IMG/VR virus record: IMGVR_UViG_3300012931_000024
Coordinates: 1 to 54,093 of that record
Reading direction: 5' to 3' (one strand)
Source: a virus
Taxonomy: Duplodnaviria; Caudoviricetes
Length of the DNA stretch: 54,093 bases
Of this stretch, positions 46,371 through 54,093 are shown piece by piece. Every line of letters starts with the position of its first letter. Within the stretch, counting starts at the first letter, position 1. Position numbers and translations under genes: made by a program. Below the pieces are notes generated by a model. It searched no databases. It worked only from the letters and a program-made list of their open reading frames with translations, and was not told the DNA's origin.

Positions 46371-46389
46371 ATTATATCATATTATATCA
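46371..46389 (-). promoter_or_regulatory. tandem extended -10 promoter elements
   Basis: TGATATAAT twice, 10 nt apart, upstream of 46340. Confidence 0.65.
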
Positions 46390-47143
46390 ATAAAATCAGT
46401 AAGTTCCATCATAATCCTGGTTGTTTTTGACGAATCCTGGATATGATAGAAACCTCCCGGGAGGATGAGAAAAATCATGGCTTCTTTGTAAACTATTTAA
46501 AATAATGGAATGTAGATTTCATGGAGTTAAAAAAATTTTCGGAGCGAAGATAGTTTTTGAGTACGCACTACAAAACTAACCTCCCGGCTGGATAAGGCTT
46601 ATAGCCCAAGTCCTTCCGGTAGGAGAACCTATAGTCCTGGTAGTTGGAAAGTCTATGCGGAAGGTCGGCGGTCCGGTGGGAAAATGGTTAATGGTGGTGG
46701 TAGAGGTGGACTGGAAATGGTAGTGGCTGGTTGGCCGGTTCGGGAATCCTTCCCATGGTGGTTGGCTCGGCGGCTGCTGTGAGATTTTTTGGATTCGGCG
46801 GGCCCGTCATGGAGCCTGGGTCATTTCTGTAAATCCGTGACAACCATCTATCCTATAGTACCCATTCTATATCCAAACAGGCTGATTCTCTTTCTTTGCT
46901 TTTAATTTAATCTGAATGGGAAAGATTTTAAGGTATTTTCTACCTGGGAAACGCTTAAATCCAAAAAAATGAACACCACGTAAAAAACTTCTTTACACCC
47001 TCTTTTGTTTTGTGATAGCATGAAAAATGACCCGAAAATATCAATGTTTCTGGAAGAAACAAGGCTGTGAAAACCATCGGGAATATAACCAATAACCAAG
47101 TCACCCTGGATAATGAAAGGAATGCGAAAAAACGCAAGCAATT

Positions 47144-47164
47144 TATAATGGTCTATGATAGAAT
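47144..47164 (+). promoter_or_regulatory. early rightward promoter (-10 elements)
   Basis: TATAAT at 47144 and extended -10 TGATAGAAT at 47156, with A-tracts upstream. Confidence 0.5.
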
Positions 47165-47211
47165 AATAGTGCAATGAAAGAAGAAATTAGACCAACGGCC
47201 AAGAGAAATTT

Positions 47212-47508
47212 ATGAAAATCATTCGTTTCCAACGCCCCAAGCCCGACATGAGAGATGTCAAGAAATGTGACTCATGTGGAGGAGGGGTGAATTTCCATTC
47301 AACCAATCATGCTTTTTATCTGTGTTCTGGCTGTAAGAACACAGTTGACGCTCGGCTTAAAAATGGTGGGATTGATACTAAGGGGTTCTGGAAGACAGTT
47401 AATCCTATAGTTCAGACAGTCCCGAAAGTGTTTAAACCATACAGGCCGAGAAAAACAAGAAAGTGTGTTCACACCGCTTTCGCTTGCAGCATAGCTGCCC
47501 CCAAGTAA
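47212..47508 (+). CDS. Zn-ribbon basic protein
   Basis: CDSC...CSGC; first ORF after the promoter; weak SD. Confidence 0.55.
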   Translation: MKIIRFQRPKPDMRDVKKCDSCGGGVNFHSTNHAFYLCSGCKNTVDARLKNGGIDTKGFWKTVNPIVQTVPKVFKPYRPRKTRKCVHTAFACSIAAPK

Positions 47509-48053
47509 TCTGCTCTATTTGGGAGAGAAAGGTCTTTGACAATTAGGCACAGAGGGAGTTATCACACTCCAGAGAACGTGTAGAGTTACTGGAAGAGAAG
47601 TAACTGACAGGTCTCGTCCAAAAGTGAAAAAAGATAGACTGGGGGTGATAGTCGGAGCTATTGCTGAGGTCTATGACTTGGTGAAACGAAAGGGTTGTGC
47701 TGAGTAGGATTAGCCAGGTTGCTGATTCAAGGCCAGAAAAATTGATGCTTGGGAGAGAAGCAGGAAACTGCGAATCGCCGCACATGCATCTGCAAGGCTT
47801 AGAATCGTTAGGATTGGTAGTGTGGCTGATTACAAGTGTAGGCCAATTCTAACAGTTGCTGGTGCCGAAAAGGTCAACAAATCATCGGGAAAATTAATCG
47901 CAGATGGGTTGACTGAGTAGGGAGAAACTTGCAGGAAGACAAGCGTTAAGGAGATGCCTGATAGGCCGCCCGATGTCGAAGTTTCGCATTGGTTGAGAGC
48001 GCTAGTGAGCCTCCCTAAACAACTAACCCATTTGCGTTAAGCAGATGGTCGGC
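47507..48053 (+). ncRNA. large structured non-coding RNA candidate (~550 nt)
   Basis: No credible ORF; many nested helices with G-U pairs, a GAAA tetraloop, long-range pairings and a pseudoknot (see findings). Confidence 0.65.
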
Positions 48054-48054
48054 T

Positions 48055-48133
48055 TGAGACATGCAAACTAAAGCGGCTGGTGCTGCTGGCGGTAGTCTTG
48101 TCAGCGGTATCAGCCGCTTTCTTGTTTGCCTCA
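48055..48133 (+). promoter_or_regulatory. long RNA hairpin (terminator or RNase III-type processing site)
   Basis: AAAGCGGCTGGTGCTGCTGGCGG / TTGTCAGCGGTATCAGCCGCTTT with several G-U pairs. Confidence 0.6.
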
Positions 48134-48165
48134 GGTGAACAGAAAAATATCTTAAGGAGGACAAA

Positions 48166-48480
48166 ATGGAACTTGTAAGGGTCAAAAGTTACGATGAGAA
48201 AGAAGGGAAGATTCCACCAATCAGGGCAATTCGAGCAGTTACTGGTTGGGGGCTGAAGGAAGCCAAAGACTTTGTTGAAACTTTACCCCAATCCTTAACT
48301 GTCAAAGGCATCGAGCAGATTGTCACCCTTGCCAAAGGCGGATTGGATGTTGAGGTCACTGAGGTTCAAGAAGCTCTTTGGGATATCCTACTCAAGGCTG
48401 CAAGACAGGCTTTGAATGAAAACCAGGCTGACTTGGCCTATGACATTTTAACCCTTTGCAGAAAGTATGACTTCTTTTAA
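48166..48480 (+). CDS. ribosomal protein bL12 (L7/L12) C-terminal-domain-containing protein
   Basis: KIPPIRAIRAVTGWGLKEAKDFVETLP; AAGGAGG SD. Confidence 0.8.
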   Translation: MELVRVKSYDEKEGKIPPIRAIRAVTGWGLKEAKDFVETLPQSLTVKGIEQIVTLAKGGLDVEVTEVQEALWDILLKAARQALNENQADLAYDILTLCRKYDFF

Positions 48481-48492
48481 AAAGGAGGACAA

Positions 48493-48708
48493 ATGACTAA
48501 CAAGGAATTTGCCGTGAAAGACCAGGTTTTCAGGAAGGCTTGTGAGTTGACCATCATCAACAATAAACCCCTACCTGCTCCTGCTCGGCAAGCCTCAAAG
48601 TATCGGCGTGGTCTTGGGGTGGCCTTCAAGATGAAGACTATGGCGGTCAAAACTTTGGCAGAGGAGAAGAAAAAGACAAACAAAAAGGTTGTCAAACCAA
48701 AGGAGTAA
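48493..48708 (+). CDS. small basic phage protein
   Basis: FRKAC...RQASKYRRGLGVAF motif; AAGGAGG SD. Confidence 0.75.
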   Translation: MTNKEFAVKDQVFRKACELTIINNKPLPAPARQASKYRRGLGVAFKMKTMAVKTLAEEKKKTNKKVVKPKE

Positions 48709-49337: not shown

Positions 49338-49616
49338 ATGGCTAACTCAGAGGAATATTGGGTGGAAAAATACAAGGAAGAAGCTGAAAAGGTAGTTGAA
49401 GCCCATTATATCATTGGCTGGCTATCTGGTCAACTCAAGGTTTGGCATGGGTATTCGGATGAGCAAATTGAAAAGCTCATTTCCGAAGGAATACAATCAT
49501 ACCATAAACTTCGTGAGGAAAGACAACATGGAAAAACATTTGGAGAAGGAGCTGAAGAGGGTAAAGCTGACTTTGGAAAAGCTCCAGAGGAAGCTGAATC
49601 GGGAACAGGAGCGTAA
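49338..49616 (+). CDS. hypothetical acidic protein
   Basis: AAGGAG SD. Confidence 0.65.
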   Translation: MANSEEYWVEKYKEEAEKVVEAHYIIGWLSGQLKVWHGYSDEQIEKLISEGIQSYHKLREERQHGKTFGEGAEEGKADFGKAPEEAESGTGA

Positions 49617-51872: not shown

Positions 51873-52769
51873 ATGGCAGAAAAGTTACCGATTGTTTGTA
51901 TGCAGGTCAGAACCAAGAAGTGGCCTGGGCAGACAAAACTAAAGGCCGAAGACATCGGGCTGGATGAAGATGATGTGGCTGAAAATGTAGTTCTCGGTCA
52001 TAGAAAGCTTTATCCTGATGAATGGCGGACTCGGTTCAATTCCATTCATCAAAAGGCTGTTGCTTTTCTGAACAAAAACAGCCTGCCTTTCATTCTTGAC
52101 ACAGTTCGGGCGGTGCCAAGAATGAGGATTGATAAAATCGTCGGCGGTCTGGCTGCATTCAAAAACCAATACATGAATGCAGTGGATGAATTTTTGGCCG
52201 ATGTGGATAACATTCGGGTGAAGATGTTAGAAGATTTTCCTGACACCTTTAAACCTGAAGACATTCCAGAAAGGGCCAAACTTCGTGAGAAGTTTAAAAT
52301 GTGGTGGTTAATCTTTGAAGTAAAAGGACCTGATACCACGCAATTGGAACAGGATGAATTGATTTCGGCTTATCATCAAGCCCAACAAGAAATCAATGAA
52401 AAACTGGCCCAATTCGTGGAGGAAAGTGTCATCCTTTTACGGAAAAAGATTTCCCAAGTCGTGGAGGGTTTACGGGACAAGCTGACAGAGGGGAAAATCG
52501 TCAAGAATACCTCTCTGGAAAGTGTCCGTAGTGTTCATGACTGGTTCAAGGAACTCAATGTTTTCGGAGACAAGAGCATTGATTCAGCCTTGGAAAAACT
52601 GAAGGCGGCTTTGCCTGAAGATGCAGCCTTCTTCAAAGGCAACAAAGAATTGCAAACCAAGATTTCTGAGTTGGCGGATGAAGTTGCAAAGAAGGCTGCT
52701 GACTTGGATGACTTGGGAGAAATTACTGGCAAGTATATCAGAGTGGTCGAAGTTGAGGAAGCGGCATAA
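51873..52769 (+). CDS. DUF3150-like helical protein
   Basis: WPGQTKLKAEDIG...LGHRKLYP...RAVP pattern; ELNVFGD; upstream of an AAA ATPase. Confidence 0.65.
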   Translation: MAEKLPIVCMQVRTKKWPGQTKLKAEDIGLDEDDVAENVVLGHRKLYPDEWRTRFNSIHQKAVAFLNKNSLPFILDTVRAVPRMRIDKIVGGLAAFKNQYMNAVDEFLADVDNIRVKMLEDFPDTFKPEDIPERAKLREKFKMWWLIFEVKGPDTTQLEQDELISAYHQAQQEINEKLAQFVEESVILLRKKISQVVEGLRDKLTEGKIVKNTSLESVRSVHDWFKELNVFGDKSIDSALEKLKAALPEDAAFFKGNKELQTKISELADEVAKKAADLDDLGEITGKYIRVVEVEEAA

Positions 52770-53052: not shown

Positions 53053-54093
53053 ATGGAAAACGGAGATGGCGGCGGTTTCTTAAAACCTTATGCCAGAGCA
53101 GTTTACCCATGCATTTGGGTAAGAACCGTCGAACCAGAAAGATTTATTGAGTCGGCGGTAGAGGAAATGAAAGGCTTCCGAACTTGTGTCACTTGGGACT
53201 ACAATCGTGGATTCCGTCAAGAACCTCATGATGGAATGGAAAGATTTAACTTTTCTGTGGGAGAATTGAAGCCAAGGCTTTTTGTCAAAGCAAATCCAGA
53301 ACAGGTCTTAACTCGGGCCGCATCTGGGCCGGAAAAAGCTGTTTGGTTTTTGATGAATTATCAATGGGATATTGAGGCCCCAACGGTAATTCAAGAGATT
53401 TTGAATCTCCTTCCCCTTCTCAAAACCAATAAGATAATGCTTTGTGTAGTGTCACCGGTATTGAAATTGCCGGTAGAACTGCAAAGAATCTTTACGGTCC
53501 TTGATTTTTCTTTGCCTAGCAAAGGGGATTTAAAAGTAATCCTCGACCGCTGTTCGCAAGGAAATAAAATTGAGGTCAAAAACGAGAAGGAAATTTTGGA
53601 AGCATCTTCTGGCTTGACTTGGGAAGAGGCTGAAAATGCTTATACTCTTTCCATTGTCAAGTGCAAGGATTTTAATGCTCGGTATATTACTGAGCAAAAG
53701 GCGCAAATGATAAAGAAGTCAGCGGCTTTGCGTCTTGCCCATTTCAAAGAGACCTTTGAAGACATTGGAGGTCTTGATAACCTCAAGAATTGGTTGTTAA
53801 ACAGATTTATTAATCGTCAGGCCGATTTGCCTTGGCGGGGAGTGCTGCTTTTAGGCGTTCCTGGCACAGGGAAATCTACTCTGGCAAAAGCATTAGCCAA
53901 TGAAGTCAAACGGGCTTGTGTGGAATTAAGCATGGCAAGCATGTTTGGTTCACTTGTTGGCGAAAGTGAAGAAAGGATGAGAAATTCTTTGGATGTAATT
54001 GATGCCATGGAACCTCTTATCCTATTCGTGGATGAAGTTGAAAAAGGTCTCGCTGGCGTTGGGTCCGCTCATGAAGGAGACTCCGGCACGACC
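53053..54093 (+). CDS. Ycf46-like AAA+ ATPase (runs off the window end)
   Basis: Read manually: RAVYPCIWVRTVEPER N-terminus; IGGLDNLKNWL; Walker A GVPGTGKS; Walker B ILFVDEVEKG; AGGAGG SD. Confidence 0.88.
   Translation, partial: MENGDGGGFLKPYARAVYPCIWVRTVEPERFIESAVEEMKGFRTCVTWDYNRGFRQEPHDGMERFNFSVGELKPRLFVKANPEQVLTRAASGPEKAVWFLMNYQWDIEAPTVIQEILNLLPLLKTNKIMLCVVSPVLKLPVELQRIFTVLDFSLPSKGDLKVILDRCSQGNKIEVKNEKEILEASSGLTWEEAENAYTLSIVKCKDFNARYITEQKAQMIKKSAALRLAHFKETFEDIGGLDNLKNWLLNRFINRQADLPWRGVLLLGVPGTGKSTLAKALANEVKRACVELSMASMFGSLVGESEERMRNSLDVIDAMEPLILFVDEVEKGLAGVGSAHEGDSGTT

What the first reader, a model, noticed from the sequence alone, without database searches (positions are those of the whole stretch)
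47507..48053. ~550-nt ornate non-coding RNA candidate in the early region
Seen: an ORF-free, purine-rich tract with many helices. Domain 1 is closed by AATCTGCTC (47507) / GAGTAGGATT (47702) and GGCACAG / TTGTGCT, and contains AGTTACT / AGTAACT and ATAGACT / GGTCTAT. A GCAG-GAAA-CTGC tetraloop sits at 47760. Domain 2 is closed by CATCTGC (47787) / GCAGATG (48041), and contains GTTAGGATTGG / CCAATTCTAAC, CGCAGATGGGTT (47899) / AACCCATTTGCG (48025) and TAGGGAG / CTCCCTA. CATCGGG (47883) / CCCGATG (47969) crosses the 47899/48025 helix, which makes a pseudoknot. The motif GGGTTG(n)CTGAGTAGG occurs twice (~47692 and ~47907). G-U pairs favour the + strand. Established: phages carry large ornate RNAs of this size class (ROOL, GOLLD). 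Inference: this is a divergent member or a new class.
Basis: partly seen in the sequence, partly recalled or inferred. Interest (0 to 1): 0.8.

Follow-up and report, generated by a model that had tools for sequence, protein, structure and literature searches.

The report
New large structured phage RNA
A half-kilobase stretch in the early region of a wetland phage that codes for no protein looks like a conserved, intricately folded RNA of an undescribed type, placed between a small zinc-finger gene and a transcription stop signal.

Summary
Window 47548-48019 (+) is a conserved, non-coding, structured core. A variable linker and a conserved intrinsic terminator (48070-48129) follow it.

Only two homologues turned up in all collections scanned: L085/L142 and L143. 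They are 65-68% identical to the window, with invariant blocks of 29 and 24 nt.

The RNAalifold consensus has 147 pairs, 29 of them with compensatory changes. Shuffles gave 11.9±2.6 and slid controls 1-5. The column-shuffle z is -6.15 on the + strand, -3.4 on the - strand, and -1.8 and -2.3 for two coding controls.

No Rfam family matches at E≤10 in any of the three, so it is not a detectable ROOL, GOLLD, intron, RNase P or tmRNA.

The single-sequence folding z-score does not discriminate here: 2 of 13 coding controls were stronger.

Synteny is the same in all three: two extended -10 promoters, a Zn-ribbon protein with a basic tail, the RNA, the terminator, then early genes lacking that promoter motif.

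Best reading (about 0.35): an early RNP that acts at the terminator. I put a real structured RNA at about 0.85. Expression is untested, and three sequences is thin.

The parts
46992..47021 (+). Early promoter-like site 1, extended -10 type (TG + TAGCAT)
   Evidence: 9 of 12, TG present. The -10 block aligns with TGATATAAT / TGATAGAAT in L085 and L143.
47155..47164 (+). Early promoter-like site 2, extended -10 (ATGATAGAAT), about 48 nt before the ORF start
   Evidence: The same tandem pair lies upstream of the homologous ORF in L142 (3264, 3426) and in L143 (2053, 2211).
47212..47508 (+). 98-aa Zn-ribbon protein (two CxxC pairs) with a basic KPYRPR(G)RxGK tail; always directly upstream of the RNA
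   Evidence: The family has 16 proteins at E<=0.01 among 29 candidates. Pfam ZZ scores below its cut-off. The AF2 model has pLDDT 71 and no PDB fold match at E<=0.001.
47548..48019 (+). Conserved structured RNA core (about 470 nt)
   Evidence: Alignments A4 and A5. 118 of the 147 consensus pairs lie here. Column-shuffle z is -6.15. No Rfam match.
47584..47605 (+). Hairpin, 7 bp with an 8-nt GGAA-type loop
   Evidence: 5 of 7 pairs changed on both sides and kept (helix 5).
47634..47674 (+). Hairpin with an inner variable stem
   Evidence: Helices 6 and 7: 2 and 3 pairs changed on both sides.
47681..47741 (+). Most conserved segment: invariant blocks 47681-47709 (29 nt, holding repeat 1 of the GTTG-n-CTGAGTAGG motif) and 47718-47741 (24 nt, ending in an A-rich single strand)
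   Evidence: Invariant columns of A4. Predicted helices 8 and 9 never vary or vary on one side only.
47743..47948 (+). Domain closed by the long-range helix 47743-47751 / 47940-47948 (9 bp)
   Evidence: helix 10: 2 pairs changed on both sides, 1 on one side only (one both-sided pair also shows a one-sided state), 100% of cells paired. An inner helix 47789-47792 / 47932-47935 also covaries (helix 14).
47807..47853 (+). Variable hairpin; a different sequence in each lineage
   Evidence: 11 bp in the window. L085 and L143 carry other hairpins at the same place, with compensatory differences between them.
47906..47925 (+). Repeat 2 of the GTTG-n-CTGAGTAGG motif, followed by GGGAGA
   Evidence: CTGAGTAGGGAGA is invariant in all three sequences.
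47970..47992 (+). Hairpin, 9 bp
Evidence: helix 21: 3 pairs changed on both sides, 100% of cells paired.
48020..48069 (+). Variable linker; 48020-48056 is largely absent from L085 and L143
48070..48129 (+). Intrinsic terminator: about 20-bp hairpin followed by a T-rich run
   Evidence: Helix 23 has 2 pairs changed on both sides and 5 changed on one side.

Best explanation
What it is. A conserved, multi-domain structured RNA with a core at 47548-48019, forming the 3' part of the first rightward early transcript of a tailed phage. Transcription would start at two tandem extended -10 promoters (about 47021 and 47164). It would pass the 98-aa Zn-ribbon gene and the RNA, and meet a conserved intrinsic terminator at 48070-48129.

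How I think it works (inference). The RNA folds as it is made. The Zn-ribbon protein translated from the same transcript binds it through its basic tail. The two copies of the GUUG-n-CUGAGUAGG module are the candidate binding sites. The resulting RNP acts at the terminator directly behind it and decides whether polymerase runs on into the early genes downstream, which lack the phage's own promoter motif. That would be a delayed-early switch, laid out like the N/nut or put systems of lambdoid phages.

What is shown and what is inferred. Shown: conservation, compensatory base pairing, strand, absence of coding, synteny, and a terminator with covariation. Inferred: co-transcription, protein binding, and any effect on termination.
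For: Structure.
- 147 consensus pairs, 29 changed on both sides and kept.
- The control shuffles gave 11.9±2.6, with 0 of 500 reaching 29; slid partners gave 1-5.
- Column-shuffle z is -6.15 on + and -3.42 on -. Coding alignments of the same three genomes gave -1.76 and -2.27, with 10 of 86 and 5 of 54 compensatory pairs.
- 71 G-U cells against 6 A-C cells.

Conservation. The core is 65-68% identical between the window and the homologues, against 57-60% for the adjacent ORF. It has invariant blocks of 29 and 24 nt. It is one of the few DNA-level matches in the early region.

Not coding. 10 of 13, 5 of 8 and 6 of 6 indels are not multiples of 3.

Synteny in 3 of 3 genomes. Two tandem TGATAKAAT sites lie upstream of the Zn-ribbon ORF. 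A terminator lies behind the RNA. That promoter motif does not recur on the + strand for 7.8 kb in L142 or 3.9 kb in L143. In the window the looser form TGNTANAAT does not recur until 52130.

Protein. The protein carries a conserved basic tail.
Against: - Only three sequences, two of them 89% identical. The structure was derived from the same alignment on which the pairs were counted.
- No expression data of any kind.
- No known terminator-control RNA is anywhere near 470 nt (recalled). Long invariant unpaired blocks look more like a ribozyme or scaffold RNA than a nut or put site.
- The linker between core and terminator varies in length and sequence, which argues against a riboswitch-like alternative pairing with the terminator.
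- The protein fold gave no significant match (0 matches at E<=0.001), and RNA binding is inferred from composition only.
- Weak sigma-70-like sites do exist downstream, for example 49468-49497, so the downstream genes may not depend on read-through.
- A TTGACA-18-TATCGT/TATCAC site inside the 5' edge occurs in the window and L085 but not L143. It leaves open a separate start in two of the three genomes.
Confidence: 0.35

Rival explanations
1. A stand-alone 'ornate' RNA, the same kind of thing as ROOL or GOLLD. It would be a stable product, either cut from the early transcript or started at its own promoter, with its 3' end set and protected by the terminator hairpin. It would act in trans, as an RNA-only assembly or with a host or phage partner, for example in host takeover or counter-defence. 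The terminator would be leaky and not controlled by the RNA.
For: Its size, many helices and long invariant unpaired blocks resemble large ornate RNAs. ROOL, GOLLD and OLE form homo-oligomers according to the abstract of PMC12286853 (seen in the listing). A palindromic GGCC sits in an invariant single-stranded block at 47732-47735. A TTGACA-18-TATCGT/TATCAC site overlaps the 5' edge in two of three genomes.
Against: No Rfam match to any such family and no tRNA neighbours. The own-promoter candidate is absent from L143. The strict synteny with the Zn-ribbon gene (3 of 3) would go unexplained. Oligomerisation is untested.
Confidence: 0.3
2. A long structured 3' UTR with no function of its own beyond stabilising the Zn-ribbon mRNA, or setting its translation or decay.
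For: It lies directly behind the ORF stop and before a terminator in all three genomes.
Against: The RNA is better conserved than the ORF it would serve. Invariant blocks of 29 and 24 nt and a 200-nt-spanning covarying helix are more than stability needs.
Confidence: 0.1
3. A DNA-level element, such as a replication origin or protein-binding sites with the two GTTG-n-CTGAGTAGG copies acting as iteron-like sites, or a primer or R-loop transcript, rather than a folded RNA machine.
For: It lies in the early region upstream of replication-type genes (DUF3150 and AAA ATPase). The motif is repeated. The transcribed strand is purine-rich.
Against: Compensatory changes keep the helices, and G-U pairs fit one strand only. 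There are only two repeats about 214 nt apart and no A+T-rich unwinding stretch. The positive G-C skew is shared by the whole + strand early region.
Confidence: 0.07
4. One or more small proteins are encoded here.
For: A stop-free frame of 52 codons covers the first 155 nt or so in all three sequences. An ATG with an adjoining GGAG at 47954 opens short frames of differing length in the three.
Against: The 52-codon frame has no conserved start and is shifted by a 2-nt indel in L085. The peptides differ wherever the stems covary. The frames from 47954 end at different places. Most indels are not multiples of 3. The GGAG abuts the ATG, leaving no spacer.
Confidence: 0.03
5. A degenerate or ORF-less self-splicing intron, or another known ribozyme or housekeeping RNA.
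For: The size is compatible.
Against: No group I, group II, RNase P, tmRNA, 6S or HEARO match at E<=10 in any of the three homologues. ARAGORN found nothing. The flanks are a complete ORF with its own stop and a terminator, so there are no exons to join.
Confidence: 0.03

Closest known systems
ROOL and GOLLD large ornate RNAs of phages and prophages
   Same: Several hundred nucleotides long, many helices, conserved unpaired stretches, carried by phages, and no coding capacity.
   Different: No match to the Rfam models. No neighbouring tRNA genes. It sits in an early operon behind a Zn-ribbon gene, and the family is tiny (3 sequences found). Oligomerisation is not tested.
Lambdoid early-terminator control: N with nut RNA, and the HK022 put RNAs (recalled)
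   Same: The order of parts matches: early promoter, small basic protein gene, RNA element, first terminator, then genes lacking that promoter motif.
   Different: Those RNA sites are tens of nucleotides long, whereas this core is about 470 nt with long-range helices. The protein is a Zn ribbon rather than a disordered peptide. No effect on termination has been shown.
Co-transcribed RNA-protein pairs such as OLE RNA with OapA (recalled)
   Same: A large conserved RNA sits next to a small dedicated protein gene on one transcript.
   Different: The RNA, the protein, the host range and the phage early setting are all unrelated. Binding is not shown here.

Membership tests
ROOL RNA | Match to the Rfam covariance model (sequence plus structure) | tested here: not met
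   0 matches at gathering score in 54,093 bases. No ROOL match at E<=10 in window 47300-48300 or in L143 and L158.
ROOL / GOLLD RNA | Frequent neighbourhood of tRNA genes in phage or prophage DNA (recalled from the literature; papers seen only as the listing) | tested here: not met
   ARAGORN found 0 tRNA or tmRNA genes in the window.
GOLLD RNA | Match to the Rfam covariance model | tested here: not met
   none.
ROOL / GOLLD RNA | Homo-oligomeric assembly (abstract of PMC12286853, seen) | not testable with these tools
   Needs SEC-MALS or cryo-EM of the transcript.
Group I / group II self-splicing introns | Conserved catalytic core (Rfam models) and exons that join into a gene | tested here: not met
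   No model match at E<=10. The upstream ORF ends with its own stop, and a terminator follows the element.
RNase P RNA, tmRNA, 6S RNA, HEARO/omega RNA | Match to the Rfam models; for omega RNA, an adjacent IscB or TnpB gene | tested here: not met
   The neighbouring proteins carry no such domains.
Intrinsic (factor-independent) terminator | G+C-rich hairpin directly followed by a T run on the transcribed strand | tested here: met
   48072-48118 has 20 pairs, 11 of them G-C, followed by TTCTTGTTTG. The same is seen in L142. The stem covaries (helix 23).
N/nut- or put-type terminator control | RNA element between an early promoter and the first terminator, with downstream genes lacking their own promoter | tested here: inconclusive
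   The order of parts is met in 3 of 3 genomes. But promoter scans are only consensus matches, and weak sites exist downstream.
N/nut- or put-type terminator control | Short RNA site (one or two stem-loops) sufficient for read-through | tested here: not met
   The conserved core is about 470 nt, with 118 predicted pairs including long-range helices.
N/nut- or put-type terminator control | Increased read-through of terminators in the presence of the RNA, and the protein where one is involved | not testable with these tools
   Needs a transcription or reporter assay.

The most novel reading that the evidence does not exclude
A previously undescribed class of large RNA that works as a dedicated machine with its own small Zn-ribbon protein. 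It would be either a giant RNA-based read-through device riding on RNA polymerase, or a new ribozyme or self-assembling RNP made in the first minutes of infection. It has been found so far only in a rare lineage of wetland phages.
Probability: 0.3. Interest if true: 0.8.

Novelty: new variant of a known kind. Interest (0 to 1): 0.6.

Why it matters
Large RNAs with conserved complex folds are rare, and almost every class studied has turned out to be a ribozyme, an RNP core or, recently, a self-assembling cage. A new class in phages with a fixed protein neighbour and a fixed place in the early operon would give a testable entry point. The candidate partner, the candidate binding modules and a candidate read-out (read-through of the terminator behind it) can all be named. 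If the RNA does control the terminator, it would be a new and far larger form of phage antitermination RNA. If it does not, it adds a protein-linked member to the short list of ornate phage RNAs whose function is still open.

Tried and rejected
Searches for more homologues.
- Five DNA-motif scans of viral contigs returned 46, 10, 22 and 11 stretches. One scan of metagenome contigs returned 8 stretches and one of genome contigs returned 7.
- nhmmer kept only L085 (the same contig as L142) and L143. All other stretches were chance matches to the motif alone.
- Four protein-based scans of viral contigs were run. One with the window's downstream L7/L12-like ORF gave 64 loci, all distant and none holding the RNA. 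One with the upstream Zn-ribbon ORF gave none. Two with alignments of a neighbouring protein and of the Zn-ribbon protein gave only the G001 contig again.
- blastn against 50,697 phage records found no match.
- The element is single-copy in the window's record and in G001.

Expression and variants. No RNA holder was listed among the 6 sequencing runs found, all wetland metagenome DNA. Contigs of 4 runs laid on 46900-48600 showed no variant letters, and most covered only parts of the stretch. Neither result bears on expression or structure.

Protein function. For the Zn-ribbon protein, Pfam ZZ scored below its cut-off, PHROGs and NCBIfam gave nothing informative, Foldseek against PDB gave 0 matches at E<=0.001, the PDB sequence profile gave nothing below E 0.79, and the ESM Atlas scores were all below 0.9.

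Ideas dropped.
- A link between the RNA and the L7/L12-like gene at 48166: that gene is absent from G001 and not adjacent in L143.
- Hammerhead-like, CsrB-like (GGA is not enriched, by hand count) and tRNA-like readings: nothing supports them.
- An alternative genetic code: all six frames hold stops of more than one kind.
- A riboswitch-type alternative pairing with the terminator: the linker is variable.
- A loop-E or sarcin-ricin-like reading of the CUGAGUA module opposite UUAGAAUC. This rests on a recalled motif and one of two competing pairings, and was not tested.

Literature. Two full-text searches. PMC10690425 predicts over ten thousand candidate structured RNAs from IMG/VR intergenic regions (passages read). 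I make no claim that it is unpublished beyond the absence from Rfam 15.

The contigs that encode the other Zn-ribbon homologues (clusters other than the window's P0005, L085's P0002 and the 116-aa P0001 that appears to be L143's) could therefore not be fetched.

Full report
SETTING
The window is a 54,093-base IMG/VR virus record. Tailed-phage structural genes lie on the - strand (portal; virion protein). Two + strand early or replication blocks lie at the ends (DNA methylase, SbcC-like ATPase, DUF3150 and AAA ATPase). The finding lies at the start of the rightward early block. Upstream, a 98-aa ORF ends at 47508. The next ORF with a ribosome-binding site starts at 48166.

THE OBSERVATION
The tract is 59.8% purine, and every one of the six frames carries stops of more than one kind, so no recoding of a single stop opens it.

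Single-sequence folding:
The - strand gives z = -2.2.
- Conserved core: -4.0 on + and -0.5 on - in my own run.
- Controls: of 13 control windows of equal length taken from genes of the same record, two scored -6.4 and -4.9.
So the single-sequence z-score does not single this region out, and I do not lean on it.

KNOWN FAMILIES
- Rfam 15 gave no match at gathering score anywhere in the window.
- At E<=10 on 47300-48300 there were two matches. Both lie outside the core, and one of them is simply the terminator hairpin.
- The same search on the two homologous loci gave 10 weak matches, none inside the element.
- ARAGORN found no tRNA or tmRNA.
The element is therefore not a detectable ROOL, GOLLD, HEARO, group I or II intron, RNase P, tmRNA or 6S RNA.

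HOMOLOGUES
- A scan of IMG/VR for the repeated motif gave 46 stretches. nhmmer kept one, L085 (E 1e-60). L085 lies on a 98.8-kb record with terminal repeats (G001).
- Two more motif scans, a gapped one, and two scans with protein alignments (a neighbouring protein and the Zn-ribbon) gave only that record again. Earlier scans with the two single flanking ORFs gave no locus holding the RNA.
- The one metagenome scan gave 8 stretches, of which one is a true homologue, L143 (E 1e-57).
- The genome-contig scan gave 7 chance hits, and the cultured-phage collection gave nothing.
The family as found here has three sequences. In the core the window is 65% identical to L085 and 68% to L143, and those two are 89% identical to each other.

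BORDERS
Conservation begins at 47548 (CACAG...). The conserved core ends at about 48019. After it comes a linker that is 50 nt in the window and much shorter in the others. Then comes a hairpin of about 20 pairs followed by a T-rich run (48070-48129), whose stem changes in a compensatory way (helix 23).

STRUCTURE
RNAalifold on the three sequences gives 147 pairs, 29 of which changed on both sides and stayed paired. Counted independently:
- 93.8% of cells are paired.
- 29 pairs have double changes, against 11.9±2.6 in 500 shuffles (0 reached 29), and against 1-5 when the 3' partners are slid by 1-3 columns.
- The caveat printed by the tool applies: the structure came from the same alignment.

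As a control that keeps the conservation pattern, I shuffled alignment columns within classes.
- The core has z = -6.15 on the + strand and -3.42 on the - strand.
- Two coding alignments from the same three genomes gave -1.76 and -2.27, with fewer compensatory pairs (10 of 86 and 5 of 54).
- The model has 71 G-U cells against 6 A-C cells, so the + strand is the folded one.

The best-supported helices are:
- 47584-47590 / 47599-47605 (5 double changes).
- 47634-47639 / 47669-47674 with its inner stem.
- The long-range helix 47743-47751 / 47940-47948, which encloses about 190 nt.
- 47789-47792 / 47932-47935.
- 47970-47979 / 47984-47992 (3 double changes).
- A hairpin at 47807-47853 that has a different sequence in each lineage.

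- Two are confirmed by covariation.
- Two are hairpins kept in place with other sequences.
- Two are nearly invariant and cannot be tested.
- Four are specific to the window: 47507/47702, 47787/48041, 47899/48025 and the pseudoknot.
The window-specific 3' tail does give a 12-bp and a 7-bp perfect helix. That is unlikely by chance, so this lineage may have an extension, but it is not part of the shared fold.

Which of three GGGAG strands (47554, 47751, 47920) pairs with the single CUCCC at 48011 is unresolved. RNAalifold prefers the 5'-most one, which would close the whole core end to end. It has one compensatory pair and two one-sided changes in its support (helices 1 and 2).

NOT CODING
Most indels between the homologues are not multiples of three: 10 of 13, 5 of 8 and 6 of 6. 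One stop-free frame of 52 codons covers the first 155 nt or so in all three. It lacks a conserved start, is shifted by a 2-nt indel in L085, and its peptides differ exactly where the stems covary. Antisense ORFs lie at different places in the three sequences.

CONSERVATION PATTERN
Two blocks are invariant in all three: 47681-47709 (29 nt) and 47718-47741 (24 nt). So are CTGAGTAGGGAGA (47913-47925), a 17-nt block at 47950-47966 and a 12-nt block at 48004-48015. The adjacent ORF is less conserved at DNA level, at 57-60%. Between the window and L142, the two halves of the element are among only seven DNA-level matches in about 10 kb.

CONTEXT
In all three genomes the element directly follows a small protein with two CxxC pairs and a conserved basic tail.
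- The family is small: 16 proteins at E<=0.01 among 29 candidates in the 5.8-billion-protein collection.
- Its predicted fold (pLDDT 71) has no significant PDB neighbour. The nearest are B-box or ZZ-type zinc fingers at E about 0.1, and no library names it.

Upstream of this ORF all three genomes have two tandem extended -10 promoter-like sites of the form TGATAKAAT. The same motif faces leftward on the other side of the intergenic region. It is enriched in L142 (5 found, 0.36 expected) and in L143 (3 found, 0.15 expected).

Downstream of the terminator the motif does not recur on the + strand within the 7.8 kb held for L142 or the 3.9 kb held for L143. In the window a looser form (TGNTANAAT) recurs only at 52130. 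The genes behind the terminator differ among the three genomes.

A sigma-70-like site overlapping the 5' edge of the core (TTGACA, 18 nt, TATCGT or TATCAC) is present in the window and L085 but absent from L143. A separate start is therefore possible in two genomes but is not a shared feature.

INTERPRETATION
I put the chance that this is a real, selected, structured RNA read from the + strand at about 0.85. Its function is inferred.

The layout is: early promoters, a small basic Zn-ribbon protein, the RNA, a conserved terminator, then early genes lacking that promoter motif. That is the layout of terminator-controlled early operons in lambdoid phages (recalled). The fixed pairing with the protein gene suggests an RNP assembled on the nascent transcript, and the twice-repeated module is a natural candidate binding site. 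I therefore take as best reading an early RNP that acts at the terminator (about 0.35).

Against it stand the size and the long invariant unpaired blocks, which resemble ribozymes or ornate scaffold RNAs more than any known antitermination site. The close rival (about 0.3) is a stand-alone ornate RNA whose terminator only sets its 3' end. A passive 3' UTR, a DNA element, small proteins and known ribozymes are less likely, for the reasons given under the rivals.

NOVELTY AND LIMITS
No described RNA family matches. The kind (a large structured phage RNA of open function) is known. The limits of this work are:
- There are three sequences, two of them close to each other.
- There are no expression data. 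Only DNA runs were found (listed under Tried and rejected).
- The host is unknown.

Noticed in passing
window 48166-48480 (+): A 104-aa phage protein carries a ribosomal L7/L12 C-terminal domain (Pfam PF00542, E 2.2e-9; TIGR00855, E 3.5e-7). 64 IMG/VR loci encode relatives. It is absent from the related record G001.
   Followed up: partly
window 46380-47155: A gene-poor stretch of about 770 nt lies between divergent extended -10 promoter-like sites (two TGATATAAT on the - strand at 46371-46389; TGATAGAAT on + at 47156). It contains a G+C-rich part (46684-46843) and a hairpin plus T run at 46754-46781. It is not conserved at DNA level with L142 or L143.
   Followed up: partly
window 49433-49405 (-): A strong promoter-like site (11 of 12 matches, with TG) points leftward inside the + strand early genes. 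The hairpin at 48072-48118 also has a T-rich run on its - strand side, so it could stop an antisense transcript as well.
   Followed up: no
window 51900-52371 and 53200-53671 (+): Two coding control windows (in the DUF3150 gene and the AAA ATPase gene) fold far better than their dinucleotide shuffles (z -6.4 and -4.9, 25 shuffles each). That is stronger than the finding itself.
   Followed up: no
window 48020-48056 with 47787-47793 and 47899-47910: A 3' tail found only in this genome forms 12-bp and 7-bp perfect helices with upstream segments. GCAGATG occurs at both 47900 and 48041, so two mutually exclusive pairings are possible.
   Followed up: partly
L085 786-1310 (-): The related phage G001 encodes a 174-aa pentapeptide-repeat-like protein (a long run of ANLxx repeats) in its early region. 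G001 has direct terminal repeats at 98.8 kb, yet is rated 79% complete.
   Followed up: no
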